From a virus, in the IMG/VR virus record IMGVR_UViG_3300045988_174992: a DNA stretch of 64,000 bases. One strand, written 5' to 3'. The notes beneath the pieces were generated by a model. The model did no database searches. It was not told the DNA's origin and worked only from the letters and a program-made list of their open reading frames with translations. Numbering within the stretch: position 1 is the first letter of the stretch; every line of letters starts with the position of its first letter. Shown in pieces: positions 1,132-29,102 of this stretch. The position numbers and the translations under genes were made by a program.

Positions 1132-1154
1132 AATTATTGATTTTAAATTCAGAC

Positions 1155-1186
1155 AGAATATAGTTTATCCTGTCTGAATTTCAAAA
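1155..1186 (-). promoter_or_regulatory. host-type promoter overlapping a terminator-like hairpin
   Basis: Minus strand reads TTTTGAAAT then TCAGACAGGATAA then ACTATATTCT (TTTG-N19-TATATT). The 9-bp inverted repeat TTCAGACAG / CTGTCTGAA (1148-1156 / 1170-1178) spans the spacer. Confidence 0.5.
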
Positions 1187-1202
1187 TATTTAAAATTTTA
1201 TA

Positions 1203-4200
1203 TTAAAATGGACAATCCTCAAACAAATTTTTCTCTTCTACCTTCTTCATGTAAGAAGTATCTTCAGATTTGCTTAAATTCTGTCCAAAGATAGTACCTC
1301 TTAACGAATTAGTATTCTCCATCTTCTCAACAAATCTCTTATTTGTTCCATCCTTTGAAGCATAATCACTATAATCATAACCATCATGAATAACATTCTT
1401 CAATTGACTTTCAATTTGCTCTAATTTGTATTTTGAAGTGTGTGGAAGATTTTCTGGTAACTTGGATTCATATTCCTCTAATGTTTCTTCTTTCTTGTTT
1501 CCATCTTCTATCTTAATGTTTTCTATAAGTTCTTGTAAGAAGAACTGCTTAGTAATGTTGTTCTGATAAATCTCATTTATTTCTTGCTTAGTATTCCAAA
1601 GCATTTCAAATGGTCTTATTGTTATAATTCCATTCTTCAGTTTGGATTGGTCAATTATGATCTTCCATAAGTTGCATATCAAATCATAAATCTTCTCAAG
1701 ATATGCTTTATCTTCAACTACAACATCCTTTACAGAATTTGCATATTTACATGCATAGCTCTTCAACCATTCATCTATTTCTTCTCTTGTACATTTCATT
1801 GTATCATCTGCCCATTTCTGAGCATCTTTTACAAATCTCAATATAGGAAAATCAAGTCTTCGTTTTCTTCTGCTTTGTTCTATTGAAACAAACTTTCTTA
1901 TTCTGTTTAGCTTACTGAAATTTATTCTGTTCTGCTTCTTGTCAATACAATACTTATATATATCTTTGATAGTATCTATATTGTAGTTCTTGTACAATGA
2001 CAATACTATTGGAACATTTCTTTCCATTATCTCTATATCCTTAACATACAAATTATTGTCTTCTCTCATTTCTCTATATTCATCATCTTTGAATATGTTG
2101 TAGTTTCCAGAAATGAGTTCTCGATACAAATCAATATTTCCATCATTTACATGATCCAAGAAATCCAAAGTTTCAACAGTAACTTGATTGAATCTCATGT
2201 GTCTGCATGACTTAAGATAATCTTCAATGAATTCCAATCTGTCTTCTGATATCTCTTTTTCATGGTCAATCACATTTGTAACATATCCATAATACTGAAG
2301 ACCTTCAATCATCATTGGAAGCTGCTTCATATAAGTGGCGTATCTGTCTTCAAACACACTCAACTTATATGTTGTTTCATCAATAAAATACTTGCATTGA
2401 TTTTCATCATACTTTAGATATTTGTTAGTAGAAAGCAATGATTGAATTAATGGGTTGTATTTTGATTCTTCATTGTTTCTCTCTATCATATCATTACATG
2501 TCTTAATCAAATCTCTTGCCAAAAGCAAATCAGCCTGATTCAAACTCAAATCCAATGGTTGAGTATAGTAATAGTTGATAGGCATTCCAACAGAATCTTT
2601 CTTTGGAAGAAACATTTTAAGATACAGATTGTTGTTTCTAAGTCTATTTGCAAACTGTTCAATATCTTGTGGAATCCATTGTTCATTGAAATAAACAGAG
2701 AAACTGAACTTATCACAAATATCCACACCTACTGACAAATAAGTTGTACAGAATACAATATCATTATTTCCAATAGACTTATCAAAATTGATGAGATCCA
2801 TAGATTCTTCACCATAATTTGATTTCTTATAATAGAAACAGTTTATCTGTCTTCCAAACTTCATATCATCAAGATATTGCTGTACTAATCCAGTAAGCTG
2901 ATCATACCAAAGATTTCCTTTATTTGTTGGATAGAGAATCTTCTTACCATCTTTGATATCTTTTGCCATTGAATGAGCCATTTCAATCATCTGTTCTACT
3001 TTTGTTGGACACATGTTCAATTCAAAAGATTTCTCCCTGTAGTCATCCTTTTCAACTTTGATATGTTTGATACCAGGAAAGAATAGCATTTCTCCAGTAG
3101 GAGTACCAGTCATCATGATTATTTTTGCTTTACAATTAGCAAGTCTCTGAATTGTTGGGGCCATCACATCACGATAAGAAGAAGTGAATATCAGATGCGA
3201 CTCATCAAGTACTATATATTCAAATCCTGCGGTATCAAGCTCCATGACATTCAATCTTGAAAACTTATCTATTGTCATTGACATAGATTTGTTTGAAAGC
3301 AAATCTTCAAGTTGTGGTTTCTTATTTCCGTAGTAATAAAGCCAATCTGATGTTACAGATGATGTTTCTACTTTTGCTTTTATTGTTGAAGTAAATGGAA
3401 GTATCAGAAGTGTCTTAGCTTTGAATGCTTTAATCATTTCAGTCTTTCCATAACCAGCACCAGCTTCCAACAATGTGATATGATTCAAATTCTTAAGAAT
3501 ATCATCCTTCAAATCAGAAAGATACTGATCTTTATTCAAATGCAACTTTACTAAGTTGTCATCTTTATCATTAAGAACATCTGTTGGCGACTTGAATATT
3601 TTTTCATCTTCTCTATTTGTAGTTAATGACTTCTGCTCTTCTTTATAGATATTGTCATCTTCTATCTTAATGTTGAATCCATGATATTTGTTCAACTGTT
3701 TGATAGCCCAAACGGAAACTGGCTTATCATGTATGCTTGCAGTCTTAACATCACCTTTAAGCTCTTTATAATCTGTACCATCACAAATGGCAACCATATA
3801 TTGCAATGCCTTATCATATCCATATATAGAAGTAAGAGTGTTTGCAAGTTGCCAACGTTGTGCATGCTTATAATGTCGACGAATGCATTTGCTTGGATCA
3901 ACATCATTTATATCAGAAACTGCAGTTATATCTACACTTTTCTTCTGATTGTTTTCTGTATTGAACCATTCCAACTTAGCAAATATGTTCTTCAAGTCAG
4001 GATGTGATATCCAATCTATTGATTCAAGCCCTGTATCAAATGCCGTTTCAAAGTTAGCATCAAGTCGTAAGTCTATGAAATTAGTGGACAATAATGCTTT
4101 ACTATCTGATGTAATGAATATACCTTGCTGTGGTTTTGCCATCGCCATATCAAGCCAATCAAATATATCATCCTTTGTATATCCAATTTCCTTCATATAC

Positions 4201-4856
4201 TTAGTAAGAACAATATACAAGTAACTGTACTTATGCCTGAAATTACACAGATATTCAATCTTCTTGTTTTCGTCTGTATAAGATATTGGTGTTATCTTTG
4301 TCCAAACATGAAGTGATTTTCCAGATGCTGACTTAGCAACTCCTAAAAACCAATGATATTTGTTGAGGTCTTCAAAAATCTTTAGTTTAAGTTCATTTGC
4401 AATCTTCTTATTCTTAATATCAATATCTATGATCTGAATTCCATTCCACATAGAAAATGACTTTTCACCAATAGGTCGATTGTTAGATGAAACTGAAAAC
4501 ACTACTTTTCTGCTTGCTTTCTCAACATTCTTATATATAGGATCCTGAACAAGCATCCAAACATCTTTCCATGACTGTACAATACCTACTTTATCATAAA
4601 TGGAATTAGTAATCAAACACGATACCATGCCAAGTACAGAATCGAGATATCTGTCTTGCTCTTCTTTAGAACATTCTTTAAAATTAACAGAAGAATATAT
4701 TTCTTGATCTGTATCTTCTTCATTTAATGCTTCATATTCTTTAGACATACAACGAAACTGTTCATAAATATCAGTCATTGCAGTCTTCCCAGAATAGCTT
4801 TCAGCAACCTTCTTGAGGTATTGTGCTATATTTAATGGATTTGAATTGTTACTCAT
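1203..4856 (-). CDS. putative primase-helicase fusion (primase-like N-terminal domain plus SF2 helicase)
   Basis: 1217-aa ORF. Walker A is LLEAGAGYGKTEMI, Walker B/DExH is YIVLDESHLI, motif III is MMTGTPTGE, and a motif VI-like QFANRLRNN is present. The N-terminal segment ...GVAKSASGKSLHVWTKI... resembles VirE/BT4734-type primase-like domains. Confidence 0.6.
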   Translation of the reverse strand: MSNNSNPLNIAQYLKKVAESYSGKTAMTDIYEQFRCMSKEYEALNEEDTDQEIYSSVNFKECSKEEQDRYLDSVLGMVSCLITNSIYDKVGIVQSWKDVWMLVQDPIYKNVEKASRKVVFSVSSNNRPIGEKSFSMWNGIQIIDIDIKNKKIANELKLKIFEDLNKYHWFLGVAKSASGKSLHVWTKITPISYTDENKKIEYLCNFRHKYSYLYIVLTKYMKEIGYTKDDIFDWLDMAMAKPQQGIFITSDSKALLSTNFIDLRLDANFETAFDTGLESIDWISHPDLKNIFAKLEWFNTENNQKKSVDITAVSDINDVDPSKCIRRHYKHAQRWQLANTLTSIYGYDKALQYMVAICDGTDYKELKGDVKTASIHDKPVSVWAIKQLNKYHGFNIKIEDDNIYKEEQKSLTTNREDEKIFKSPTDVLNDKDDNLVKLHLNKDQYLSDLKDDILKNLNHITLLEAGAGYGKTEMIKAFKAKTLLILPFTSTIKAKVETSSVTSDWLYYYGNKKPQLEDLLSNKSMSMTIDKFSRLNVMELDTAGFEYIVLDESHLIFTSSYRDVMAPTIQRLANCKAKIIMMTGTPTGEMLFFPGIKHIKVEKDDYREKSFELNMCPTKVEQMIEMAHSMAKDIKDGKKILYPTNKGNLWYDQLTGLVQQYLDDMKFGRQINCFYYKKSNYGEESMDLINFDKSIGNNDIVFCTTYLSVGVDICDKFSFSVYFNEQWIPQDIEQFANRLRNNNLYLKMFLPKKDSVGMPINYYYTQPLDLSLNQADLLLARDLIKTCNDMIERNNEESKYNPLIQSLLSTNKYLKYDENQCKYFIDETTYKLSVFEDRYATYMKQLPMMIEGLQYYGYVTNVIDHEKEISEDRLEFIEDYLKSCRHMRFNQVTVETLDFLDHVNDGNIDLYRELISGNYNIFKDDEYREMREDNNLYVKDIEIMERNVPIVLSLYKNYNIDTIKDIYKYCIDKKQNRINFSKLNRIRKFVSIEQSRRKRRLDFPILRFVKDAQKWADDTMKCTREEIDEWLKSYACKYANSVKDVVVEDKAYLEKIYDLICNLWKIIIDQSKLKNGIITIRPFEMLWNTKQEINEIYQNNITKQFFLQELIENIKIEDGNKKEETLEEYESKLPENLPHTSKYKLEQIESQLKNVIHDGYDYSDYASKDGTNKRFVEKMENTNSLRGTIFGQNLSKSEDTSYMKKVEEKNLFEDCPF

Positions 4857-5015
4857 CTAAAATTCTATCAATTGTTCTAAAACTTAAAAATCATTATATT
4901 ATGTTATGTTACTTACTTATCTTGTATCAAAATAGTAAATTGAATAAAGCTATTTCAAAATGATTTTAATATAGAATATATTTGTTAAAACAATCAGAAT
5001 ATATAAATAAACATA

Positions 5016-5113
5016 GGATTCTCCAGGATAGCGCCTGGGTCACGAGATTGGCGGAAGATTGGATGTAAGTATAATTTATCAGCTTAAACATTTTTAACGT
5101 CCCTGAAGTGAAA
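5016..5113 (+). repeat. GC-rich conserved intergenic element, copy A (possible structured RNA)
   Basis: GGATTCTCCAGGATAGCGCCTGGGTCACGAGATTGGCGGAAG ... AACGTCCCTGAAGTGAAATTT. Both the 5-prime and 3-prime blocks align with copy C (42142-42235, opposite strand), and the 5-prime block aligns with copy B (31498-31565). Hairpin is CCAGG-N6-CCTGG. Confidence 0.55.
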
Positions 5114-5191
5114 TTTAACATTAATCTTATTTAACAGACAATAAAAATTAATGAAATGACAATTTTTAAATAAGTTAAATGATTGAATTCA

Positions 5192-6049
5192 ATGAGTTGT
5201 GTACAAAATACAAATAATAGTTCTCCAGCACAAAAAGAAATCTCCATGGAGGAATACAATAAGAGAAAGCATAAAATAGAAGATCAAGTAGATTACCAGT
5301 TTATTCAAAGAATCATACAAGAACTGACACAAACTTGTGCTATAAATTTACCAATGCAACCATCAGCTATTCCACCATTGATTCTTCAAGCTGCTCAATA
5401 TTTCTGGGAAAATTGTGACCAGGCGATAGAAGAACGTTGGTATTGTCTCCCATTCAGAGAGTTTACAAAATGTGGTGCTAACATGATTGCTAAGTTGCCA
5501 CCGCAAATTCTTTCAGTAAACGGATTGTACAAAGCAACAGATAGTTGGTCTTATGGTGTCATGGGCGACTTTTCTTTAGAAAGAATGATACTGAACAATT
5601 CAGCTATAGCATCTGGTGTTGGTGGAAGCTTATCTGATGTGTATGGATCAGGTGGAGGATATACATTGACTGATGTTACAGCAGCATTGTATGAACTTGA
5701 TACTTTTGACTATATTTTTAATACTCCTATAACATATAATTACAATACTTACAGTAATGATCTTGTTGTGTTAGGAGCTATCGGTCATTCTGATTTGATG
5801 CTCAATGTATATAAGAGACTTAAGATACAAGATCTGTACAAGAATTACTATTTCTTCAGATATTGTGTTTGCCTTGGCTTACGTTCTATGGCTACTATCC
5901 TTGGTACATTTGAATTTAAGTTGCCTGGTGGAGTTACTTTAAATTACAGTATATGGAGAGACATGGCCAATGAAGAAATGCAGAAGATAGATGAATGGAT
6001 TCAGAAGAATCATTCTGCTGACTACTTCATAAATACTAATACTATTTAA
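5192..6049 (+). CDS. hypothetical protein, probable virion/baseplate module member
   Basis: The ORF track starts at a TTG (5183); the first ATG is at 5192. It is followed at 1-3 nt spacing by a 78-aa ORF and a 1172-aa ORF. No motif recognised. Confidence 0.65.
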   Translation: MSCVQNTNNSSPAQKEISMEEYNKRKHKIEDQVDYQFIQRIIQELTQTCAINLPMQPSAIPPLILQAAQYFWENCDQAIEERWYCLPFREFTKCGANMIAKLPPQILSVNGLYKATDSWSYGVMGDFSLERMILNNSAIASGVGGSLSDVYGSGGGYTLTDVTAALYELDTFDYIFNTPITYNYNTYSNDLVVLGAIGHSDLMLNVYKRLKIQDLYKNYYFFRYCVCLGLRSMATILGTFEFKLPGGVTLNYSIWRDMANEEMQKIDEWIQKNHSADYFINTNTI

Positions 6050-6050
6050 A

Positions 6051-6287
6051 ATGGACATAAAGCAAAGTTTAGATTACAAGTTTCTAGGATATCAAAAGTC
6101 AACAAATCTTGGAAGGAAAAAATATGACTATGCTAGGGATGGAATTCTCATAAGAGTTCTTCCACCTATTCTGTTCAGGGGAAACCCAACATTAGTAGCT
6201 TTCTTACAACTTATAGATATTCAACTCATCACCATGTTCAAGCATGTTGAAGCAATCAGAAAATTCAAGCACATATCATCTTATTAG
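6051..6287 (+). CDS. hypothetical small protein (78 aa)
   Basis: ORF packed 1 nt after the previous stop and 3 nt before the next start. Confidence 0.55.
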   Translation: MDIKQSLDYKFLGYQKSTNLGRKKYDYARDGILIRVLPPILFRGNPTLVAFLQLIDIQLITMFKHVEAIRKFKHISSY

Positions 6288-6290
6288 ACA

Positions 6291-9200
6291 ATGGAATTCA
6301 TCGATCATACAGGACATATATACTCATTGAAGGATTGGCAAAATGAACCAATAGGATATGAATATGAAATAGGAAATTATGTAGACTGGTTCACTTCAGA
6401 TACAACTTCTCACAAGCTTAGTACAGACAGATACTATATTAAGCCTGTAAGAATCATAGTGAATTCTAATGACTTTATATCTGTAAAGATTAATAATGGT
6501 GGTAAATATGAATATGATATGAATGTTCCACATTTCTGGTTGCTAAGCTCTGCATACATACAGGATTGTATAGAGAACAACAGTAACATATTTGATCCTC
6601 TCAATATAGAAGAAAGTGAATTTCGTGATGAACTTTATACATACGATTTAACAGTAATAGATAATGTAGAAGTAGAAGGAAGAGAATCAACTGTATCAGT
6701 AGCTACATTTTATGTTGTCACACTAAGTCAAGAAGAAACTACTTGGCTAACTAATATCCTCATTCATATAACTACAGGAGAAGATTACAATGACAATATC
6801 TGGTGTCCTTATACTGTAGGTGCTGAATTCCACATGGAAGATAGTGAGCTTATCATAAATGGTAAGAATATGGGAATAAACATTCCTAAGGATCTAATGA
6901 AGTCAATATATTTTACTGATGTAAAATCTGACAGAATAGATGAAGAAGAATATTCTTATAAGTTAAAAGAACTTCTTCTAAACTATATGCATATTAGAGG
7001 AGAATGTGGAAACTATGAATCAGCTAAAGATTCTCTTGATTGGTTTGGCTATGGAAATCATATTACCATAAGAGGACTCAACCAAACTGACAACCAATTC
7101 TTAGAGCAATATATACAAGACAATTTTGATACTTTGTCTGACAATCTTTGGTCTTGGCAACATTTCAGAAAAGCTTCTGCTTATTCTATATGGATGGATA
7201 TAGACAGATATACAGAAGTTCTAGACAAGCAGTACTGGACAGAAGAGCTTATAGGAGAAGGTAAGCCTATTTCAGAAAACTTGTTTGATAAGATGGTTTA
7301 TGATAAGTTTGATGAACAAGACATAAAATTCTGGCGACCTTACTACAATTGGAGACTAGAAGATATGTACATAAAGATGTCGATGGTAGAGTATTACTGG
7401 AAGAAGTACTTCTTACCTATAATGACGACTATATCATCTAGTATGAAGCAACATTGCTGGATGAATGACATCAAATATATAGTAAGTCCTAGCATTCATG
7501 TTACAGAAACTCCTACTTGGATTGGAAGCACCAATACTTCCGTAAGATTTCAAGGATCTGATATAGTTTACATATACAACCAAGAATCTTACTTTGATGA
7601 ATGCTATAATGAGTTTTCAAATTCTGAAACATTAGGAAAGACAACAGAAAATCCAACAATATATATCAATGATATTTGTGCTAAGGTGCCAATTTGTTTC
7701 TTATCAAATGAAGATGAAGATTTCTTTGATGTAACTTTGGTACTTACAAAAGAGGGTAAGAAAATATATAGCTCATCATTCAGTTTCTTCCAACGAAAAG
7801 ATGATGTTGCTTATAAGAACTTCGTAATGATACCAAAGTCATTAGTAAAGTCATTCAATATGACTTATTGGATAGATAAGAAATACAGATTGTCAGTAAA
7901 CTGTAATGGAAACTGGTATTACTATGACTTCATGTTGAAAGCACCAGAATTCCAGTTGAAAGTAGGTACTTTAGAATACAAATATTTCAATTATACAGAA
8001 GTAAAAGAACTTAAACCTGGAGAAGAAGGATATCGAGATCCTAATGATCCAGAATTCGACAGTATGACAGAATCAGAGAAAGCAAACATAAATCTGTATA
8101 CAACAGAAAAATCATTGTTTTCACAGATAAAGTCTATAGAAGATGACTCAGTAAACTTCAATTCTTATATGTACCTTCCTGGATTAGCAGAAGTGAATGA
8201 CATAAGATTCTTTGACAAGTTGAAGTATATGATAGACAATGCTTCTTCTAATACTTCAAATAGTAATTCTAATAATGCTTCTACTAATACAATGAACAAT
8301 TTCTGCAACTATATTGCTTCTAAATGCTACATATATAATTTAGGAGTAAAGAACAGTAAAGTTGTATATAAGAAAGGAAATTCTGTCATCCCAATATTCA
8401 TGTTCAATAATGGTCTTGATATACCTGATAACCAAGGATATTCTTTAAGCAAATTCTATGTAGATGTATTGTTTGATGTGGACTCTAATAATGAATATTA
8501 TGCTAAGATAAGATTAGATTTGAATGATCTGAGTACTACAAAACCTAATGAATGTGTCAATCTTCATGAATATACTATATCAAACAATGATTTGATAATG
8601 ATGAAGAAAGATATTGGTTTAGGTGACCCAGCTTACAACAAGCAAGGAAATATTGATTGGGATGCAACTTCTGACAAATGGAAGCTTTTCTATATAGATG
8701 AACATCTTAGACACAAGTCAACAGTAACTATACGATTAGCTACTACAGGTGAAATAAAGCTACCAAATGGAAAAACTTATGAATTTGGTGGATATACTTT
8801 GTCAGGTGTTCCTAGAATATATCAAGATATTGCTATTCCTATCTGGAATACTAGTTCAGATTCAGTATGCAATATGGAATGCAACTGTCCTTGGAAATCT
8901 GAATGTAAGTTTAGAGGAGATTATGTAAAGACAGATTATGATTCTACTCCTAAATTAGATGAAGTAGACATGAACATGAGGCAAGAAATCACATCAGAAA
9001 ATGTAAAGAAGTCTATAGATTCACTTATCAATAGCATGAGGCAAACCGTGTCTACATCTAACAACAAAAAATATCTGAACAGAATGCATATCTATGATTT
9101 GTATTTGTATAAGATGAATGATGTAGAAAAAAGAAAGAGACTTGGTTTGAATATAAGTAAGATATCAAAACTTAAGTACAATAGTAAGATATATGATACC

Positions 9201-9809
9201 AAGTGGTATTCTCCAAACCACTGGGAACAACCTTCTGAACTGGTAGAACTCTATAGAATGTTCTTTAATGATGATGGTACAGAAAAGTTCAGTATAGGAG
9301 ATGACAATGCATTCAATTATGATTTCTATCTTATGCATGATGACACTAATTGGTTTGCTGTTCTCATATCGCAAGATACAGAAGACAAACTTATTGGTGA
9401 CATGGATTTAGATCCTCATGACAAGATAGAATATTGTCCGGATGATGAAACAAAGATTGTAATGAAAAAATACAGATCATCTGATACTTTCTTAATAAAC
9501 AGAATGGTATTGGAAGAAAAATATCCAGTAAATCATTTTAAAGAAGATGACTTGATATTCGCTAGTATTGACAATGTGAAATTCCCATTCATATTGGATA
9601 AGACGACTAAATGGTCAGTAAAGAATTTGTCATTGTTGAATAAGAACAAGCCATCTATAACTTCTAATTCTAATGCTATGATACTTAGCTTATATGATGA
9701 AGCTTCTAAGAATGTTTCAGGTTATTATAATATAGATGTAAGATACAGCATAGAAGGAAATGTTGACCACCAACAGAAAAAACATACAAGAATACTTATA
9801 GAAAAATGA
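6291..9809 (+). CDS. large putative virion structural protein (1172 aa)
   Basis: Very long uninterrupted ORF with an Asn/Ser-rich low-complexity patch (ASSNTSNSNSNNASTNT). It sits in the plus-strand structural-looking block. No enzymatic motif recognised. Confidence 0.7.
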   Translation: MEFIDHTGHIYSLKDWQNEPIGYEYEIGNYVDWFTSDTTSHKLSTDRYYIKPVRIIVNSNDFISVKINNGGKYEYDMNVPHFWLLSSAYIQDCIENNSNIFDPLNIEESEFRDELYTYDLTVIDNVEVEGRESTVSVATFYVVTLSQEETTWLTNILIHITTGEDYNDNIWCPYTVGAEFHMEDSELIINGKNMGINIPKDLMKSIYFTDVKSDRIDEEEYSYKLKELLLNYMHIRGECGNYESAKDSLDWFGYGNHITIRGLNQTDNQFLEQYIQDNFDTLSDNLWSWQHFRKASAYSIWMDIDRYTEVLDKQYWTEELIGEGKPISENLFDKMVYDKFDEQDIKFWRPYYNWRLEDMYIKMSMVEYYWKKYFLPIMTTISSSMKQHCWMNDIKYIVSPSIHVTETPTWIGSTNTSVRFQGSDIVYIYNQESYFDECYNEFSNSETLGKTTENPTIYINDICAKVPICFLSNEDEDFFDVTLVLTKEGKKIYSSSFSFFQRKDDVAYKNFVMIPKSLVKSFNMTYWIDKKYRLSVNCNGNWYYYDFMLKAPEFQLKVGTLEYKYFNYTEVKELKPGEEGYRDPNDPEFDSMTESEKANINLYTTEKSLFSQIKSIEDDSVNFNSYMYLPGLAEVNDIRFFDKLKYMIDNASSNTSNSNSNNASTNTMNNFCNYIASKCYIYNLGVKNSKVVYKKGNSVIPIFMFNNGLDIPDNQGYSLSKFYVDVLFDVDSNNEYYAKIRLDLNDLSTTKPNECVNLHEYTISNNDLIMMKKDIGLGDPAYNKQGNIDWDATSDKWKLFYIDEHLRHKSTVTIRLATTGEIKLPNGKTYEFGGYTLSGVPRIYQDIAIPIWNTSSDSVCNMECNCPWKSECKFRGDYVKTDYDSTPKLDEVDMNMRQEITSENVKKSIDSLINSMRQTVSTSNNKKYLNRMHIYDLYLYKMNDVEKRKRLGLNISKISKLKYNSKIYDTKWYSPNHWEQPSELVELYRMFFNDDGTEKFSIGDDNAFNYDFYLMHDDTNWFAVLISQDTEDKLIGDMDLDPHDKIEYCPDDETKIVMKKYRSSDTFLINRMVLEEKYPVNHFKEDDLIFASIDNVKFPFILDKTTKWSVKNLSLLNKNKPSITSNSNAMILSLYDEASKNVSGYYNIDVRYSIEGNVDHQQKKHTRILIEK

Positions 9810-10321
9810 AAAGTTTAACTAATTACATTTATGAAAGCATAAATAATGTATCAGAACAGTTCCAAAGCAATAGTTCTAATAAAAATGGAATGTTCTTACA
9901 TAAAGATGGATTACGCCAATCAGAAGACTTTAATTTCAACCCAGGTGAAAAGGCATTATGCATTGCTTATGATACTGATGGATATCGTATTCAAATCCGT
10001 GGCATATTAGAAATTGCTAAAGTCCTTAAGAGTAGTATTAAAGTTAAGGCTACTACAGATGATGGAACTGAATTTTATAATAAAATGAAATTTGATAATA
10101 CAGGTATTGCCATTGTGAAGACAAACAGCAAGTATCGCGGTAAATCTGTAAAATATTATGTTCTCTACAATAAAGATCTTATTGACAGTGAAAAGGATGG
10201 TAAAGATATTAAAGAAATATTAGATAAAGGTACATGTTCTTGGGGATTTGATCTTCCAGAAAATAAAGAATTAAGAAAGGATTATATCAAAAACCTCAAA
10301 AAGTATCTTAAAGAAATCTAA
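9806..10321 (+). CDS. putative capsid internal protein with CTS-like N-terminus MKSLTNYIYE
   Basis: ATGA start/stop overlap with the upstream gene. The N-terminal decapeptide is almost identical to that of the next gene and resembles the T4 internal-protein capsid targeting sequence MKTYQEFIAE, which ends in the I-x-E prohead-protease motif. Confidence 0.6.
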   Translation: MKSLTNYIYESINNVSEQFQSNSSNKNGMFLHKDGLRQSEDFNFNPGEKALCIAYDTDGYRIQIRGILEIAKVLKSSIKVKATTDDGTEFYNKMKFDNTGIAIVKTNSKYRGKSVKYYVLYNKDLIDSEKDGKDIKEILDKGTCSWGFDLPENKELRKDYIKNLKKYLKEI

Positions 10322-10325
10322 GTAA

Positions 10326-10766
10326 ATGAAAAGTTTAACTAACTATATTTGCGAAGCTATGAAGAAGAAATTCAATGGCTTCGCAATTCTCAAACCAGAA
10401 TTCTTGGATATCAAAGATGATTTTGAAGATATGTTAGAAGATGCTGGTTGGGATATAACTAACTATAAGACTATAAAGATGAACTTGGATGAAGCAAGAG
10501 AGCTTTATAAAGTACATGAAAAGGAAGATTTCTATGATGATCTTTGTCATTACATGAGTTCAGGTAACTGTATAGCTTACAAACTTTATAAAGATTGTAA
10601 AGACCCTATAAAAGACTTGAAGAAAGTAAAAGATGAAGTAAGAGACAAATATGGTAAAGATGATATGAAGAACTGCATGCATAGTTCTGATTCTAAAGAA
10701 AATGTGGAAAGAGAAGCAGATATCTGTTTCAAAATAAATAATGAACTAGACAAAGATGAAGATTAA
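10326..10766 (+). CDS. ndk: nucleoside diphosphate kinase-like protein with CTS-like N-terminus MKSLTNYICE
   Basis: FNGFAILKPEFL parallels NDK ERTFsIIKPnav. DEARELYKVHEKEDFYDDLCHYMSSGNCIAYKL parallels eqArgFYaeH.gkpFFdgLvefMtSGPivv. NCMHSSDSKENVEREADICF matches the active-site N..HgSDS...A.rEi..fF. Confidence 0.8.
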   Translation: MKSLTNYICEAMKKKFNGFAILKPEFLDIKDDFEDMLEDAGWDITNYKTIKMNLDEARELYKVHEKEDFYDDLCHYMSSGNCIAYKLYKDCKDPIKDLKKVKDEVRDKYGKDDMKNCMHSSDSKENVEREADICFKINNELDKDED

Positions 10767-10899
10767 ATGCAACAATTGTGGTAATGAAATAGATTTGACA
10801 GATTATTTCATCAACGAAAGAGCTCATGTTCCTTATATTGTAAAATGTAATGAATGTGATTCATCTGTTTCATACATACCAAATAAGGATGGCTATTAA
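10756..10899 (+). CDS. small zinc-ribbon protein (47 aa), not in ORF track
   Basis: Hand translation gives MKIKCNNCGNEIDLTDYFINERAHVPYIVKCNECDSSVSYIPNKDGY, with two CxxC pairs. It overlaps the ndk-like stop by 11 nt and is followed directly by a terminator hairpin. Confidence 0.5.
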   Translation: MKIKCNNCGNEIDLTDYFINERAHVPYIVKCNECDSSVSYIPNKDGY

Positions 10900-10916
10900 G
10901 CCATCCTTTTATTTTA
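10885..10916. terminator. bidirectional intrinsic terminator between convergent genes
   Basis: AAGGATGGCT-ATTA-AGCCATCCTT (10-bp stem) followed by a T-run and preceded by an A-run. Confidence 0.7.
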
Positions 10917-11270
10917 TTCTTCTGGATCAAGTTTCTGGTTTGCATCTGAAGCATACCAAATAACCATTCTCATTGTTTTTGCAACAGCATATTCTACTTG
11001 GCATCCTTTAGAATCATTATATCCTTTACATAAATAGATATAGTCACATTCAAGCAAATCTTTGATATCTTCACCTAAATGCCAAGACCAAGGATGCGTA
11101 GGAGCATTAGGGTCTAGGCCATTCTCATCGAAATCATCAATATTGGTAGGACCATAAATCAATGCATCTGGATATTCTTTTCTAATCTCTTCTACAGCTT
11201 TATCATATCTCTTTCTTACTGATTTCTGATGATAAGCCATAGGTAAGCTAACATAAAATTTTAGTGCCAT
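10914..11270 (-). CDS. DUF4406 / nucleoside 2-deoxyribosyltransferase-like protein
   Basis: 118 aa. The pattern ...LLECDYIYLCKGYNDSKGCQVEYAVAKTMRMVIW resembles the family signature cD.i..l.gW..S.G...E...A...g..v. Confidence 0.45.
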   Translation of the reverse strand: MALKFYVSLPMAYHQKSVRKRYDKAVEEIRKEYPDALIYGPTNIDDFDENGLDPNAPTHPWSWHLGEDIKDLLECDYIYLCKGYNDSKGCQVEYAVAKTMRMVIWYASDANQKLDPEE

Positions 11271-11285
11271 TTTAACATTTTTAAA

Positions 11286-12623
11286 TTACATAAAATAATT
11301 TCTATTCTCTTCAATATAATCAGGATAGACACCATCTAATGCATTCTTAAGAAAATCTTCCACTTTGGTTGCAACACCATTAATAAGACCTTCTACTATA
11401 TCATTAGGTACCATTCTGAAGAAATGGATCTCATTAGCAGGCTTGAACTTATCATCCATGAATATAACCATAGTAATACCATTAGCATAACCTGCTGCTT
11501 TTATCTTATTCATATTAATTACATTGAATGGAATAGCAGATGGTCTTGGTATAGAAACCATCGAACCATCTGTATTCATGTAATTCAACTTATTAGGATT
11601 CAACTTAACAATTTTCAACATAGAATTTTCATAATTTGGATTAGGAATTTGTTCGACCTTGTCTAGTGTACCATACTTGTTCAAGTACTTTTCAAAATCA
11701 CCATGCTTAATCTTGAATATGATACGATCACCATTCTTACGAAGCAATCCATCTGGTGTCTTCAATACAAGACCTTCTGCTACATAGCTATCATCTTCTG
11801 CTAATGGATCCTTAAAACCCTTCTTAACATAATCGATAGCTTCATCAATAGTAAACTGCCCAATACTAATTACCTTAGGAATTCCAATCTCATCAAGAAT
11901 TGCATCTCGTTCTGGAGTATTCAAATAAACTGAAGAACCATCTCTGTTAGTTACCTTAACATCAAAAGCTCTGAAACTTACACTATCCTTAAGATATCTG
12001 CATCCGGACTTACCAATCTTCTTTCCATAACCTTCACCATAGATAGTGAACATCTTAGGCAATGTACAATTCTCTTCATCAACCATATAGTCATCAACAA
12101 CGATGGCATCTGGATCATCAAATGGCTTCTGATTAAGAGTATGACAACCAAATTTCTTAATATATCCACGTTCAAGCATCCAATCAACGTTTTCCTGAAT
12201 ATTCAATCCAGTTTCAAAATCTCTTGTACACATGTAAGATTCTGGAAGTCTAAATGCTTTAAAAATCTTACCTACAAGGTCACCATTACCTTCTAGCTTC
12301 TTACCATCAGATGAAACATAAGTATTCCACATGAAGTCATCAAGAATAGGTGGAATATTAGCATTGTCTGTCTTACCCTTAATACCAATTCCACATGACA
12401 ATGATACAGTACCATGACAAAGCTTATCTGTAATCTGTGGATAAACTTCAATACGCATGTTTGTACCATCAATCTTGATAGTGGCATCAAACTTACAATT
12501 TCTCAACCATTCAAACTCTGGAAGAGTAAAATTATCATAAGGCATGATAATGTTGTTGATATCACGCTTGAAGATAGTATTAATCTTCTGATATGTATTT
12601 TCTGATCTCTTTTGCTTTCCCAT
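11286..12623 (-). CDS. RNA ligase, Rnl2-like nucleotidyltransferase with C-terminal extension
   Basis: Motif I is ATIKIDGTNM (compare T4 Rnl2 EKIHGTNF). Motif III/IIIa is TIYGEGYGKKIGK, motif IV is AEGLVLKTP, and motif V is IIFKIKHGDFEK. Confidence 0.7.
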   Translation of the reverse strand: MGKQKRSENTYQKINTIFKRDINNIIMPYDNFTLPEFEWLRNCKFDATIKIDGTNMRIEVYPQITDKLCHGTVSLSCGIGIKGKTDNANIPPILDDFMWNTYVSSDGKKLEGNGDLVGKIFKAFRLPESYMCTRDFETGLNIQENVDWMLERGYIKKFGCHTLNQKPFDDPDAIVVDDYMVDEENCTLPKMFTIYGEGYGKKIGKSGCRYLKDSVSFRAFDVKVTNRDGSSVYLNTPERDAILDEIGIPKVISIGQFTIDEAIDYVKKGFKDPLAEDDSYVAEGLVLKTPDGLLRKNGDRIIFKIKHGDFEKYLNKYGTLDKVEQIPNPNYENSMLKIVKLNPNKLNYMNTDGSMVSIPRPSAIPFNVINMNKIKAAGYANGITMVIFMDDKFKPANEIHFFRMVPNDIVEGLINGVATKVEDFLKNALDGVYPDYIEENRNYFM

Positions 12624-12643
12624 GATTTATTTAATTTAAAATT

Positions 12644-12913
12644 TTAATTTCCTTCTCTGGATACAATCTCAAGATGTGGAATAGTTACCTTGACCAACTG
12701 ATTTGCATATCTAAGGCAAGTACCAGATTCATAAACTTTCACTGGTTCACTATCATTATTAGTTTCTGTTCCAAACTGATGGTATAGACAACGAATCTTT
12801 ACTTTAGTTGGGCAGAACTTCATGATATATCCAAGATGTGTATCTGTTTCCTGGTCACCATAAACTACAATATCACCTACATTCAAATAATTGTTTAAAA
12901 CATCTCTATGCAT
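12644..12913 (-). CDS. hypothetical protein (89 aa)
   Basis: ORF in a co-directional array. No motif recognised. Confidence 0.55.
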   Translation of the reverse strand: MHRDVLNNYLNVGDIVVYGDQETDTHLGYIMKFCPTKVKIRCLYHQFGTETNNDSEPVKVYESGTCLRYANQLVKVTIPHLEIVSREGN

Positions 12914-12925
12914 GATAAATGAATT

Positions 12926-13234
12926 TTAATTGAACATATCATCTGATTCCTGTGTCTCGATAGAAACCAATGATTCCTCCTGAAATGAACGCCAAGCTGA
13001 CTTATCCAAATCAAAGTAAGCAATTACACCAGTCTTTGGAGTACCTTCACCTGATGGAATTGCATTTTCATCAATGGATTTAATCCTATCAATTTTCTTT
13101 GTACCTCTAGCATGTCTAAGTTCACCATTCTTTTTCCTATAAGAAAAATTAACTACATTTTCTGTTTTAAGAATGTGATTTAACTTTTGCAATAAACTTT
13201 CTTTATTCATAATTATTATAATTTTGTTTGACAT
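12926..13234 (-). CDS. hypothetical protein (102 aa), possible small beta-barrel (DUF2693-like) protein
   Basis: FSYRKKNGELRHARGT resembles the F.F.K.dG..R.a.GT signature. The start codon abuts the promoter -7 box. Confidence 0.55.
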   Translation of the reverse strand: MSNKIIIIMNKESLLQKLNHILKTENVVNFSYRKKNGELRHARGTKKIDRIKSIDENAIPSGEGTPKTGVIAYFDLDKSAWRSFQEESLVSIETQESDDMFN

Positions 13235-13268
13235 ATATAATATAGAAACAAATAAAGAAATTTCAAAA
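13235..13268 (-). promoter_or_regulatory. host-type promoter; start codon directly abuts the -7 box (leaderless arrangement)
   Basis: Minus strand reads TTTTGAAATTTCTTTATTTGTTTCTATATTATATATG (TTTG-N19-TATATTAT, then ATG of 12926..13234). Confidence 0.6.
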
Positions 13269-13583
13269 TTATTTGGATAAAGTCTTTATTTCTTCTACAT
13301 TTATCTTAGGAATAATATATAAAGTATCTTTATGGTTTCCAAAAAAGTAAATGTTGTCATTTGTTTGTCCATATATGACAGAGGTGGCATTCACTTTATT
13401 CTTTGTTCCATCTTTATAAGTTACTTCAAATGTGGTCGATGTGTTATGTACTGGAGTTTCTTCAACATAAGAATCATAAGTATGTTGGGTTTGAGTACCA
13501 ATGATACATCTAGTGTACCCTAAATATATGAACAAAGATACAAATAAAATTATTACAAAATTTCGTATTGTCTTATCACTCAT
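13269..13583 (-). CDS. membrane-anchored hypothetical protein (104 aa)
   Basis: N-terminal hydrophobic segment FVIILFVSLFIYLGY. Overlaps the upstream gene by 8 nt. Confidence 0.6.
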   Translation of the reverse strand: MSDKTIRNFVIILFVSLFIYLGYTRCIIGTQTQHTYDSYVEETPVHNTSTTFEVTYKDGTKNKVNATSVIYGQTNDNIYFFGNHKDTLYIIPKINVEEIKTLSK

Positions 13584-14259
13584 ATTTCTTTGTAGTATAG
13601 TTGTACATCAATATTCTGTCACCAAAAGAAAAGTCAAATTTCTCTTTCCAGCCTTTCTTATATTGAATCTTAGAAAAATGACATTTCAATTTAATTAAAT
13701 CATCATAAGTCAATCCATGTTCTGGATCTGTTTGTATAAGCCTTGGAAATTGCTCTATCAACATATCTGTATCATCATCAACAATCATATAGTAGCTTGG
13801 TTTGAACTCATCAACCCATACTTTGATTTCATCACCACGACACCATCGCTTACCATTTGTTCTACCTAAATTCAATCTGCAAGTTTGTCCTATGATATAA
13901 GGAGATATCTTATTCAAATATGGTATGCTATCTAAAGATTTGAATGTTTCATAGATATTACCAGACCTTCTCCAAGATGATGACAATACCAACATGAAAC
14001 CTGTTGATTGCAAAAATTCAATCAACATATCAACTGCTTTGGGATCACAAAAATTATGATAATTAGGATTTGGATTCTTGTACAATTCTTCAGCCCAATC
14101 ACCACTATTCAACACACCATCAATATCAAGAAATATGATAGGAGTACAACATTTTTCTTTCCAATCTGCATCAACAATACCTGCATAATTAGTTAGCCAC
14201 ATTCTCTTCTTTGGATCCTTTGGATACATGAAAACCGGATTATTATTACGATATGCCAT
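13576..14259 (-). CDS. HAD-superfamily phosphatase (RNA-repair-associated HAD type)
   Basis: Motif I is IIFLDIDGVLNSG, followed by LVLSSSWRRSG and MIVDDDTD. This is the pattern of HAD domains found with RNA-repair ligases and kinases. Confidence 0.6.
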   Translation of the reverse strand: MAYRNNNPVFMYPKDPKKRMWLTNYAGIVDADWKEKCCTPIIFLDIDGVLNSGDWAEELYKNPNPNYHNFCDPKAVDMLIEFLQSTGFMLVLSSSWRRSGNIYETFKSLDSIPYLNKISPYIIGQTCRLNLGRTNGKRWCRGDEIKVWVDEFKPSYYMIVDDDTDMLIEQFPRLIQTDPEHGLTYDDLIKLKCHFSKIQYKKGWKEKFDFSFGDRILMYNYTTKKYE

Positions 14260-14264
14260 AGTTT

Positions 14265-14459
14265 TTACTTCTCTACTTCTTTGTATTTTCTCTTCAAAAA
14301 TACTACAAACTTATCATCATACATGTGTTCAACACTAAATGCTTCCCAACCATCAGCACCATCTAGCTTACTATCTACTTGGTCATAGGTAATATCGTGT
14401 ACTGTTACAATTTGCGTACGATATTCCCATTTGTCATCTTCAATCATTTTGTATATCAT
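14265..14459 (-). CDS. hypothetical small protein (64 aa)
   Basis: ORF packed between neighbours with 3-5 nt spacers. Confidence 0.5.
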   Translation of the reverse strand: MIYKMIEDDKWEYRTQIVTVHDITYDQVDSKLDGADGWEAFSVEHMYDDKFVVFLKRKYKEVEK

Positions 14460-29002: not shown

Positions 29003-29025
29003 GTTATTTATTATCTATTCTTTGA

Positions 29026-29062
29026 CATGTTAAATATAGAAAATGGTCGATCAAATTTCATT
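29026..29062 (-). promoter_or_regulatory. promoter variant upstream of dnaJ (-33 box ATGAAAT instead of TTTGAAAT)
   Basis: Minus strand reads TTAATGAAATTTGATCGACCATTTTCTATATTTAACATG, 26 nt before the dnaJ ATG. The spacer arm CGACCATT pairs with AATGGTCG. Confidence 0.45.
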
Positions 29063-29102
29063 AATTCAACCGACCATTCAAATTGTTATTGATATAAATT
29101 AT

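What the first reader, a model, noticed from the sequence alone, without database searches (positions are those of the whole stretch)
9806..10766. Shared N-terminal decapeptide MKSLTNYI(Y/C)E on adjacent genes resembles the T4 capsid targeting sequence; one carrier is an NDK
Genes 9806..10321 and 10326..10766 have unrelated bodies but begin with nearly identical peptides: MKSLTNYIYE-S and MKSLTNYICE-A. Seventeen of the first 18 nt are identical. T4 internal proteins IPI/II/III carry the 10-residue CTS MKTYQEFIAE. That sequence directs packaging into the prohead and is removed by the prohead protease after the (L/I)-x-E motif. The peptides here have the same length, the same M-K start, an aromatic residue at a similar position and the same I-x-E end. 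If the analogy holds, this phage packages (and probably injects) a nucleoside diphosphate kinase. That would be an unusual ejected enzyme.
Basis: partly seen in the sequence, partly recalled or inferred. Interest (0 to 1): 0.7.

Follow-up and report, generated by a model that had tools for sequence, protein, structure and literature searches.

The report
Capsid-targeting tag on phage NDK
Two adjacent genes of an uncultured human-gut jumbo phage, one of them a nucleoside diphosphate kinase, start with the same ten-residue peptide, which has the hallmarks of the phage T4 label that loads proteins into the capsid, so this phage probably carries the kinase inside its head.

Summary
ORF171 (9806..10321) and a Pfam-confirmed NDK (10326..10766) start MKSLTNYIYE and MKSLTNYICE. 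Their bodies are unrelated, and chance predicts no such pair.

- In the ORF171, ORF156 and NDK families the decapeptide keeps M1, K2 (I/L in ORF156), I/L/F4, F/Y7, I8 and E10. Positions 3, 5, 6 and 9 vary freely. In T4 IPIII, residues 4 and 7 direct targeting and 8 and 10 direct cleavage.
- Contigs 90-97% identical to the window encode a gp21-type Peptidase_S77 protease next to a Gp23-type capsid protein. That capsid protein has a conserved hydrophobic-x-E site.
- A 410-kb relative has about 20 consecutive tagged genes, including the ORF171 homologue, just upstream of its protease and capsid genes.
- Near capsid genes in 93 related loci, the motif is about tenfold enriched at N-termini.
- The closest NDK relatives in metagenomes mostly carry the same kind of tag. 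A canonical NDK in another huge phage does not.
- The window holds a third tagged gene (51192..51662) and a possible fourth, a RimK-like ligase.
- In one variant genome ORF171 is absent, and the junction lies inside the tag.

Packaging, cleavage and ejection remain untested. This is a new member of a known kind, with a novel cargo.

The parts
9806..9835 (+). Tag 1: MKSLTNYIYE, with predicted prohead-protease cleavage after Glu10 (before Ser11)
   Evidence: In 32 distinct ORF171-family decapeptides that have Glu at position 10, position 4 is I/L in all, position 7 is F/Y in all and position 8 is I in 31 of 32.
9806..10321 (+). ORF171: tagged cargo protein of unknown function. Residues 11-17 (SINNVSE) are an insert specific to this subgroup and end in a second possible V-S-E site.
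   Evidence: No Pfam or PHROG match. There are 63 homologues, all without any name or Pfam annotation; two whose gene neighbourhood was examined lie among phage genes. AF2 model pLDDT is 77, with residues 1-26 below 50. No significant PDB or BFVD fold match. The homologue P0097 lies in a tagged-gene array 5 kb upstream of the protease and MCP genes in L226.
10326..10355 (+). Tag 2: MKSLTNYICE, with predicted cleavage after Glu10 (before Ala11)
   Evidence: Tags of the same kind occur on the nearest NDK homologues.
10326..10766 (+). Tagged nucleoside diphosphate kinase (divergent). The NDK domain begins near residue 14-19, and the catalytic His is retained in NCMHSSDS.
   Evidence: Pfam PF00334 E = 4.4e-20. 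The exact protein is on record in 83 blocks of the assembly collection; the examined contigs reach 277 kb, and one 100%-identical contig is labelled human gut metagenome.
51192..51662 (+). ORF156: third tagged gene. It starts MIIFSQYISE-S, with the tag at 51192..51221. Function unknown.
   Evidence: Family N-termini follow M[IL][NK]F.[QD][YF]I.E-[SNT]L. No Pfam match. No significant fold match; T4 RegB at E = 0.22 is only a hint.
61274..62341 (+). RimK-like ATP-grasp enzyme with a possible 11-residue tag, MKYNGTNYITE-L (61274..61306). This is the weaker candidate because position 4 is Asn.
   Evidence: The N-terminus is conserved in relatives 95-99% identical, and a relative 76% identical starts MKYVTNLDDMLTLVE-S. 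Two other tagged RimK-like proteins occur in related loci.
5183..6049 (+). gp13-like neck protein gene heading the same-strand cluster that ends with ORF171, the NDK and a 47-aa zinc-ribbon ORF (context)
   Evidence: Precomputed Pfam PF26809 Phage_T4_gp13. tblastn hits include genes annotated 'neck protein' in Tenacibaculum phages PTm1/PTm5 and Chryseobacterium phage MA9V-2, and unannotated genes of pT24, MA9V-1 and PAU.
6291..9809 (+). Untagged 1172-aa protein of unknown function. Its stop codon overlaps the ORF171 start (context).
   Evidence: In variant L018 its stop overlaps the tagged NDK start instead.

Best explanation
The decapeptide is a T4-type capsid targeting sequence, an N-terminal propeptide. 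During head assembly it binds the tagged protein to the scaffolding core of the prohead, chiefly through the hydrophobic or aromatic residues at positions 4 and 7. The gp21-family prohead serine protease then removes it by cutting after Glu10 of the I-x-E motif. The mature proteins (ORF171 from Ser11, NDK from Ala11, ORF156 from Ser11) are left free inside the DNA-filled head and are probably ejected into the host with the DNA.

Shown here: the tag exists; it is under peptide-level selection at exactly these positions; it marks unrelated proteins; it clusters next to head genes in relatives; and the phage species encodes the matching protease and a capsid protein with a matching site.

Inferred: binding to the core, cleavage, presence in virions, ejection, and what the NDK does after entry.

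The 30-nt tag also acts as a short homology block at which cargo genes are gained or lost.
For: (1) T4 IPII and IPIII start MKTYQEFIAE-A and gp24 starts MAKINELLRE-S. In T4, residues 4 and 7 of the CTS govern targeting and 8 and 10 govern processing (PMC9026906).
(2) The ORF171 family (32 distinct decapeptides with Glu at position 10) has I/L at position 4 in all, F/Y at 7 in all and I at 8 in 31 of 32, while positions 3, 5, 6 and 9 vary freely. ORF156-family tags, the motif-selected NDK-family tags and the L226 array show the same pattern.
(3) The same phage species has the machinery. IMG/VR contig 3300045988_170375 carries the tag locus (95.7% identical to the window over the shared region). 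It also carries a 517-aa Peptidase_S77 protein (E = 7e-11, 42 bits against a cut-off of 27) directly upstream of a Gp23 MCP (E = 4e-30). Four further contigs carry both loci.
(4) MCP N-termini across the clade share ...KY[AC]H.H.[LMI].E-[NSA] at about residue 45. The target has THAMFE-ANLG; T4 gp23 has FLTE-AEIGG.
(5) L226, a 410-kb relative, has about 20 consecutive genes starting MK.[IL]..YI.E. They include the ORF171 homologue and end 1-5 kb upstream of its S77 protease and Gp23 MCP.
(6) In 93 MCP-centred loci, 134 of 1541 genes carry the motif at the N-terminus, against 12.7 expected from the internal-position rate. Genes with unrelated bodies share tags within a locus.
(7) In the window, 3 strict tags are seen against 0.14 expected. 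All are on the + strand (3 of 13 + strand ORFs against 0 of 72 on the - strand, Fisher p = 0.003). The gp13-like, 1172-aa, 532-aa and 1653-aa + strand proteins are untagged, so the tag is not a general late-gene feature. The RimK-like gene and the MCP are co-oriented on 4 of 4 shared contigs.
(8) NDK family: among the 99 short proteins in the best 150 representatives, 32 fit the motif and most of the others start MK.L or MK.F. The canonical NDK of huge phage LR756504.1 has no tag.
(9) The tag and linker of ORF171 are modelled at low confidence, apart from the folded body.
Against: There is no proteomic or biochemical evidence of any kind, and the phage is uncultured. The protease and MCP were found on contigs 90-97% identical to the window, not in the window or its 100%-identical contig region. 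The MCP site has Met, not Ile or Leu, at P3. Ten residues are too few to establish homology with the T4 CTS; only M1, K2, I8 and E10 are identical. In this phage the tagged genes are scattered among metabolic genes rather than next to the head genes. The genomic context of the tagged NDK relatives is unknown, because the two contigs checked were under 2 kb. Promoter scans could not establish late expression. The motif has false positives; two clamp-loader proteins matched it.
Confidence: 0.75

Rival explanations
1. The tag is a recognition peptide for something other than the prohead core. Candidates are a degron, a binding site for the phage's own DnaK/DnaJ chaperones, or an address for another intracellular assembly. 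Its resemblance to the T4 CTS would then be convergent.
For: The phage encodes DnaK and DnaJ. In this genome the tagged genes do not sit next to head genes. Ten residues cannot prove homology with T4.
Against: This does not explain why tagged genes form arrays directly upstream of protease and MCP genes in relatives. It does not explain why the conserved positions coincide with the T4 targeting and cleavage determinants. It does not explain why the capsid protein carries the same hydrophobic-x-E site at its propeptide boundary.
Confidence: 0.1
2. The shared 30 nt is only a DNA-level feature: a recombination scar, a cassette junction or a favourable translation-initiation region copied between neighbouring genes. 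The peptide would have no function.
For: Identity is high at the DNA level (26 of 30 nt). In variant L018 ORF171 is absent and the junction lies exactly in the tag.
Against: Two of the four nt differences between the tags are synonymous. Across families down to about 45-60% body identity, the DNA has diverged but residues 1, 2, 4, 7, 8 and 10 are kept. A translation-initiation effect would not fix an aromatic residue at position 7 and Glu at position 10. Upstream ribosome-binding regions are not shared.
Confidence: 0.05
3. The tag does direct the proteins into the prohead and is cleaved. However, the NDK-like protein acts as an assembly or core component, or works inside the head. It would then be degraded or retained rather than ejected as an active kinase.
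For: In T4, several core proteins (gp22, gp67, gp68) are targeted and then degraded. The NDK is divergent: the residues aligned to the conserved Arg and Thr of the RxxxGxT motif in the best PDB match are Lys and Ile, and the alignment has 8- and 3-residue gaps in that region. Some relatives are fused to ferritin/rubrerythrin domains, which suggests roles beyond nucleotide phosphorylation.
Against: The catalytic His motif N-x-x-H-S-S-D-S and the aligned Lys, Tyr, Arg and Asn are conserved across the family. T4 proteins with this short type of CTS (the IPs and Alt) are retained and injected.
Confidence: 0.1

Closest known systems
Capsid targeting sequence of phage T4 internal proteins IPII/IPIII (MKTYQEFIAE) and IPI
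   Same: An N-terminal decapeptide starting M-K, with a hydrophobic or aromatic residue at positions 4 and 7, I at 8 and E at 10, followed by Ala or Ser. It is shared by adjacent genes with unrelated bodies. The phage has a gp21-family protease and a gp23-family capsid protein. Cargo genes are variable between strains.
   Different: The cargo here includes a metabolic enzyme (NDK) and probably an ATP-grasp ligase, not small basic anti-restriction proteins. The host phage is a roughly 277-kb human-gut jumbo phage only distantly related to T4. In relatives the tag marks about 20 genes in one array. Function here is inferred, whereas in T4 it was shown by fusion and mutagenesis.
T4 gp24 and gp23 propeptides cut by gp21 after (L/I)-x-E
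   Same: gp24 starts MAKINELLRE-S, which has the same register of hydrophobic residues and the same Glu10. The clade's capsid proteins have a conserved [LMI]-x-E-[NSA] site.
   Different: Those are shell proteins. Here the tag sits on non-structural enzymes.
Propeptides of ejection proteins in phiKZ-like giant phages (phiKZ, 201phi2-1, SPN3US)
   Same: A homologous prohead protease cleaves after Glu. [quoted passage not shown]
   Different: Those propeptides are mostly over 100 residues long with A/S-x-E motifs. The tags here are of the short T4 type, 10-13 residues.
Encapsulin cargo-loading peptides
   Same: A short terminal peptide addresses diverse enzymes, ferritin-like proteins among them, to the interior of an HK97-fold shell. 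Some tagged NDK relatives are fused to ferritin/rubrerythrin domains.
   Different: Encapsulin peptides are usually C-terminal, are not cleaved, and bind the shell rather than a scaffolding core. No homology is implied.
Canonical phage and cellular NDKs (for example the untagged NDK of huge phage LR756504.1)
   Same: The same Pfam family and the same catalytic His motif.
   Different: The canonical protein starts directly with the NDK fold (METNRTFSMIKPD). The protein here has an N-terminal extension of about 12-15 residues and substitutions at two nucleotide-binding positions in the alignment.

Membership tests
T4-type capsid targeting sequence (CTS) / gp21-cleaved N-terminal propeptide | Located at the extreme N-terminus and 10-19 residues long | tested here: met
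   The tag occupies residues 1-10 of both ORFs. The NDK fold starts at about residue 14-19. The T4 range of 10-19 residues is from PMC9026906.
T4-type capsid targeting sequence (CTS) / gp21-cleaved N-terminal propeptide | Hydrophobic or aromatic residues at positions 4 and 7, the targeting determinants in T4 IPIII | tested here: met
   L4 and Y7 in both tags. Position 4 is I/L and position 7 is F/Y in all 32 ORF171-family decapeptides that have Glu at position 10. Position 4 is F and position 7 is Y/F in the ORF156 family.
T4-type capsid targeting sequence (CTS) / gp21-cleaved N-terminal propeptide | (L/I)-x-E at positions 8-10 followed by a small residue (the processing site) | tested here: met
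   I-Y-E-S and I-C-E-A here. Position 8 is I in 31 of the 32 family decapeptides. P1' across 134 clade tags is S (39), A (21), R (19).
T4-type capsid targeting sequence (CTS) / gp21-cleaved N-terminal propeptide | Shared by otherwise unrelated proteins of one phage | tested here: met
   BLASTP of the two bodies gives E = 8.2. A third tagged gene lies at 51192. Relatives have arrays of tagged genes.
T4-type capsid targeting sequence (CTS) / gp21-cleaved N-terminal propeptide | The genome encodes a gp21-family prohead protease and a gp23-family capsid protein | tested here: met
   L237 on contig 3300045988_170375, which also carries the tag locus: Peptidase_S77 E = 7e-11 and Gp23 E = 4e-30. These genes are not inside the 64-kb window.
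T4-type capsid targeting sequence (CTS) / gp21-cleaved N-terminal propeptide | The capsid protein carries the same cleavage motif at its propeptide boundary | tested here: inconclusive
   A conserved [LMI]-x-E-[NSA] lies at about residue 45 in 23 aligned clade MCPs. The target has A-M-F-E-A, with Met at P3. That this is the cleavage site is inferred by analogy with T4 FLTE-A.
T4-type capsid targeting sequence (CTS) / gp21-cleaved N-terminal propeptide | The tag is necessary and sufficient for encapsidation, is removed in the head, and the protein is ejected | not testable with these tools
   This needs virion proteomics or reporter fusions. The phage is known only from metagenomes.
T4-type capsid targeting sequence (CTS) / gp21-cleaved N-terminal propeptide | Common descent with the T4 CTS | tested here: inconclusive
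   Four of 10 residues are identical to MKTYQEFIAE (M1, K2, I8, E10), plus an aromatic at position 7. A related contig has MKTFETYINE, which shares 5 of 10 plus aromatic residues at positions 4 and 7. The peptide is too short for a statistical homology test.
Nucleoside diphosphate kinase (Pfam PF00334) | Domain match above the curated threshold | tested here: met
   72.4 bits against a cut-off of 27, E = 4.4e-20, profile positions 4-131 of 135.
Nucleoside diphosphate kinase (Pfam PF00334) | Catalytic histidine in N-x-x-H-[GS]-S-D | tested here: met
   NCMHSSDS aligns with NACHGSDS of a solved NDK. The motif is conserved in all tagged relatives inspected.
Nucleoside diphosphate kinase (Pfam PF00334) | Full set of nucleotide-binding residues (the Lys, Tyr, two Arg, Thr and Asn known from solved NDKs) | tested here: inconclusive
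   The aligned Lys (ILKPE), Tyr (DFYDD), Arg (EVRDKYG) and Asn (KNCMH) are present. In the alignment to 8g2z, the Arg and Thr of WRELLGPTN align to Lys and Ile, and the alignment has 8- and 3-residue gaps in that region. Which positions bind nucleotide is from own knowledge.
T4 internal proteins IPI/IPII/IPIII (homology of the mature proteins) | Sequence or fold similarity of the body to a T4 IP | tested here: not met
   ORF171 has no Pfam or PHROG match and no significant PDB or BFVD fold match. It works like an IP gene but is not a member of those families.

The most novel reading that the evidence does not exclude
A large, mostly uncultured clade of T4-related jumbo phages uses the short CTS as a general address label and has attached it to enzymes. 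These include a whole family of NDKs (some fused to ferritin/rubrerythrin domains), RimK-like ATP-grasp ligases, glycosyltransferases and P-loop kinases. The capsid would then deliver a pre-made enzymatic toolkit with the DNA. On this reading the NDK is a conserved injected enzyme. It would act in the first moments of infection, before any phage gene is expressed, for example by restoring (d)NTP pools against nucleotide-depleting defences or by supplying NTPs for early transcription.
Probability: 0.45. Interest if true: 0.8.

Novelty: new member of a known kind. Interest (0 to 1): 0.62.

Why it matters
If the tag works as in T4, it gives a sequence-only way to read out the capsid-delivered proteins of uncultured jumbo phages. 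A search for genes starting M-K-x-Φ-x-x-[FY]-I-x-E in genomes with an S77 protease would list candidate injected proteins. Such proteins include anti-defence factors in T4 (IPI*).

A packaged NDK would be a new class of ejected phage enzyme. I found no report of one in the searchable literature. It would raise a concrete and testable question: why does a phage need nucleotide phosphotransfer at the instant of entry?

The tag could also be useful as a packaging handle for engineering phages of gut Bacteroidota-type hosts. The host assignment is only suggested by the nearest cultured relatives.

Tried and rejected
- Megablast of the locus against 50,697 phage records gave no match.
- PHROGs and Pfam gave nothing for ORF171, ORF156, the 1172-aa protein and several large + strand proteins.
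- Fold searches of the ORF171 model (PDB and BFVD) and the ORF156 model (PDB) gave nothing significant. The T4 RegB hit at E = 0.22 is only a hint.
- Late-promoter analysis was uninformative. TATAAATA and TATATAA are too frequent on both strands of this 31% GC genome.
- I looked for the protease and MCP in the window and within 10 kb upstream of it and found none. The look-up at the downstream end found no record.
- The search for related loci with the PTm1 protease found only PTm1 itself. With an MCP alignment it returned 80 clade loci but none from the target contigs. The MCP of the closer 410-kb relative finally found them.
- The contigs of two tagged NDK relatives were under 2 kb and gave no context.
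- Rejected as explanations: chance; a signal peptide, because there is no hydrophobic stretch; and a general late-gene N-terminus, because the neck, 1172-aa, 532-aa and 1653-aa + strand proteins are untagged.
- The GC-rich patch at 5016-5075 has no significant fold.
Full report
**Observation**

ORF171 is at 9806..10321 (+, 171 aa) and the second ORF is at 10326..10766 (+, 146 aa). They begin MKSLTNYIYE-S and MKSLTNYICE-A.

The first 30 nt are identical at 26 positions, and 17 of the first 18 match. Two of the four differences are synonymous. The other two change one codon from Tyr to Cys.

A degenerate 30-nt pattern with up to three mismatches hits only these two starts in the window, and none of 100 shuffles gave a hit. 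No other ATG-initiated ORF resembles the peptide closely. The remaining sequences are unrelated, with BLASTP E = 8.2.

The second protein is an NDK by Pfam: PF00334, E = 4.4e-20, with the domain starting at residue 19. Comparison with solved NDKs agrees, with a best E of 5e-16 and the catalytic His motif NCMHSSDS aligned. The tag is therefore an N-terminal add-on to the fold.

ORF171's ATG overlaps the stop of an upstream 1172-aa gene. The whole + strand cluster is headed by a gene with a precomputed Phage_T4_gp13 (neck protein) annotation.

**What the phage is**

The window has 31% GC and no close relative among 50,697 phage records. It is 100% identical to parts of two metagenome contigs. 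One is 277,079 bp, and the other, 276,731 bp, is labelled human gut metagenome.

It encodes DnaK/DnaJ, a split NrdD plus NrdG, a gp32-like protein, RNA ligase, lysozyme and other functions, mostly on the - strand. The gp13-like protein finds, at 24-28% identity, the jumbo myoviruses Chryseobacterium phage MA9V-1/2, Tenacibaculum phages pT24/PTm1/PTm5 and Sphingomonas phage PAU. PTm1 has a Gp23-family capsid protein and a 'prohead core scaffolding protein and protease' with a Peptidase_S77 domain.

**The reference**

Read directly from the T4 record, IPII and IPIII start MKTYQEFIAE-A. IPI starts MKTFKEFTSTTTPVSTITE-A. gp24 starts MAKINELLRE-S. gp23 contains ...GSFLTE-AEIGG.

Reviews state three things.
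- The IPs carry 10-19-residue propeptides named capsid targeting sequences, and the first 10 residues of IPIII suffice for packaging.
- Residues 4 and 7 matter most for targeting, and residues 8 and 10 for processing.
- Asp at position 10 blocks cleavage but not targeting, and related phages have diverse proteins with CTS-like sequences.

**Is the tag under selection as a peptide?**

ORF171 has 63 homologues, all without any name or Pfam annotation; two whose gene neighbourhood was examined lie among phage genes. In an alignment of 28 of them, bodies fall to about 60% identity while the N-terminus keeps the form M-K-x-[IL]-x-x-[FY]-I-x-E. Among 32 distinct decapeptides that have Glu at position 10:
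- position 4 is I/L in all;
- position 7 is F/Y in all;
- position 8 is I in 31;
- positions 3, 5, 6 and 9 vary freely.

These are the positions that carry function in T4, in the same register. The window's subgroup has a 7-residue insert (SINNVSE) after the tag that ends in a second V-S-E.

**More tagged genes in the window**

ORF156 (51192..51662, +) starts MIIFSQYISE-S. Its family keeps M-[IL]-[NK]-F-x-[QD]-[YF]-I-x-E-[SNT]-L.

A RimK-like ATP-grasp gene (61274..62341, +) starts MKYNGTNYITE-L. This one is weaker because position 4 is Asn. However, the N-terminus is conserved in close relatives, and a relative 76% identical starts MKYVTNLDDMLTLVE-S.

With a strict motif, 3 N-termini match against 0.14 expected. 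All three are on the + strand (3 of 13 ORFs against 0 of 72; Fisher p = 0.003). The neck-like, 1172-aa, 532-aa and 1653-aa + strand proteins are untagged, so the tag is not a generic late-gene feature.

**Relatives**

A scan for the tag in IMG/VR found a 17-kb contig with two different genes starting MKTFETYINE-K and MKTLTNYIKE-S.

In 80 IMG/VR loci centred on PTm1-like capsid genes, many neighbouring genes with unrelated bodies share tags. Examples are MKSLSTHITE-S (five genes in L027), MKNIQSFDEFVNE-S, MKHIQNFDNFINE-N/S, MKQRISNLNNFINE-N and MKTLFETLNE-K/S.

Over 93 such loci, 134 of 1541 genes carry the motif at the N-terminus, against 12.7 expected from its internal frequency. Tag lengths peak at 10 and 13 residues, and the residue after Glu is mostly S, A or R. 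Pfam on 94 of the tagged proteins found enzymes: two RimK ATP-grasp proteins, glycosyltransferase 25, a P-loop kinase and a HAD hydrolase. It also found two clamp-loader false positives.

The most telling case is a 410-kb relative, L226. The ORF171 homologue P0097 lies in a run of about 20 consecutive genes that nearly all start MK.[IL]..YI.E. The run ends just upstream of a 565-aa Peptidase_S77 protein (E = 1.6e-11) and a Gp23 capsid protein.

Using the L226 capsid protein as a probe, I recovered capsid loci on the same IMG/VR contigs that carry the ORF171-NDK pair: 3300045988_170375, _167932, _172530, _174340 and _171958. These contigs are 90-97% identical to the window over the shared region.

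On contig _170375, a 517-aa protein with a Peptidase_S77 domain (E = 7e-11, above the curated cut-off) lies directly upstream of a 603-aa Gp23-family capsid protein (E = 4e-30). So the phage species has a T4-type prohead protease.

Across 23 clade capsid proteins the N-terminal region shares ...KY[AC]H.H.[LMI].E-[NSA] near residue 45. The target reads THAMFE-ANLG. This matches the tag's hydrophobic-x-E-small pattern, although P3 is Met. The RimK-like gene and the capsid gene are co-oriented on all four contigs where both were fetched. The + strand of the window is therefore the strand of the head genes.

**The NDK**

An exhaustive search of 1.84 billion representatives found 190 clusters at E < 1e-10. 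Of the 99 short proteins among the best 150, 32 fit the motif and most of the others start MK.L or MK.F. Examples are MKSLTAYIFE-S, MKGLTEYINE-S, MKSLRQYILE-A and MKALITYITE-A. Some end in Asp at position 10, which in T4 would mean targeted but uncleaved.

Several are fused to ferritin/rubrerythrin domains. By contrast, the only NDK hit in the phage database, in huge phage LR756504.1, is a canonical untagged NDK starting METNRTFSMIKPD. The tag-NDK combination is therefore a conserved, widespread arrangement, not an accident of this genome.

There are two caveats.
- In the alignment to the best PDB match, the residues aligned to the Arg and Thr of WRELLGPTN are Lys and Ile, and the alignment has 8- and 3-residue gaps in that region. 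Activity is plausible but unproven.
- The genomic context of the relatives is unknown, because the two contigs checked were under 2 kb.

**The tag as a recombination site**

In contig 3300045988_170924 (L018), ORF171 is missing. The 1172-aa gene's stop overlaps the ATG of the tagged NDK, so the two alignment blocks to the window overlap by exactly the tag. Cargo genes are thus gained or lost at the tag. This also explains the high DNA identity of the two copies.

**Cargo of unknown function**

ORF171 models well (pLDDT 77), with residues 1-26 at low confidence. It has no significant fold match in the PDB or BFVD. ORF156 likewise has none. Like the T4 IPs, they are lineage-specific small proteins.

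**Conclusion**

The decapeptide is best explained as a T4-type capsid targeting sequence cleaved after Glu10 by the S77 prohead protease (confidence about 0.75). It would make ORF171, the NDK, ORF156 and possibly the RimK-like ligase internal head proteins.

Everything up to the presence of the machinery and the selection pattern is shown here. Binding to the core, cleavage, residence in virions and ejection are inferred.

The mechanism is a known kind. The novelty lies in the cargo and in the scale of the phenomenon in an uncultured jumbo-phage clade. I found no report of an encapsidated phage NDK in the searchable literature.

Noticed in passing
window 36613..39408 (-), intron candidate 37664..37923 (-): The anaerobic ribonucleotide reductase gene nrdD is split into two ORFs. 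The gap holds a full-length match to the Rfam group I intron model: RF00028, 30.2 bits (below the gathering score of 50), E = 1.4e-5 in a 1-kb search. From own knowledge, T4 nrdD also has a group I intron.
   Followed up: partly
L018 (IMGVR_UViG_3300045988_170924) 1600..1700, against window 9806..10355: A natural variant lacks ORF171. The deletion or insertion junction lies exactly within the 30-nt tag, so the tag also behaves as a recombination site for cargo cassettes.
   Followed up: yes
L226 (ENA ERZ1063406 scaffold_25, 410,106 bp) 359..14438: A run of about 20 consecutive small genes, nearly all starting MK.[IL]..YI.E, lies immediately upstream of the Peptidase_S77 and Gp23 genes. This is a far larger internal-protein-like array than T4 has.
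   Followed up: partly
P0143, P0146, P0149, P0164, P0166, P0175, P0184 (NDK relatives; L240): Tagged NDKs are fused to a C-terminal ferritin/rubrerythrin-like domain. Pfam PF00210 and PF02915 are on record for P0143; the others were judged by eye. This recalls the ferritin-like cargo of encapsulins.
   Followed up: no
window 61274..62341 and 62325..>64000 (+): Two tandem RimK-like ATP-grasp genes. The second is fused to an NlpC/P60 peptidase domain and runs off the window. Only the first has a tag-like N-terminus.
   Followed up: partly
window 27971..31058 (-): The phage encodes full-length DnaJ and DnaK (Hsp70, E = 3.5e-204) chaperones.
   Followed up: no
window 11286..12623 (-), against L001, L003 and L004: The RNA ligase gene is 445 aa here, but in other variants of the phage it is called as two genes of 331 and 111 aa.
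   Followed up: no
L054, L059, L063, L065, L070, L090, L096: gene just downstream of the MCP: A conserved protein of about 366 aa next to the capsid gene starts MRK.{4}[HD][KNG][QNG]F[LF][ILF]E-RDLS. It is a likely head protein with the same kind of propeptide.
   Followed up: no
P0181, P0194, P0195, P0208, P0232 and similar (NDK relatives): A second subgroup of NDK relatives carries a different conserved N-terminal module, MPSKSESQ.RLF.MA.AVR.G.., instead of the tag.
   Followed up: no
window 5016..5075 (+): A GC-rich patch lies in the AT-rich spacer upstream of the gp13-like gene, 10 nt downstream of a TATAAATA. It has no significant RNA fold (z = 0.58) and no Rfam match. In variant L001 a 338-aa DUF7487 gene lies between the helicase and the gp13-like gene.
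   Followed up: partly
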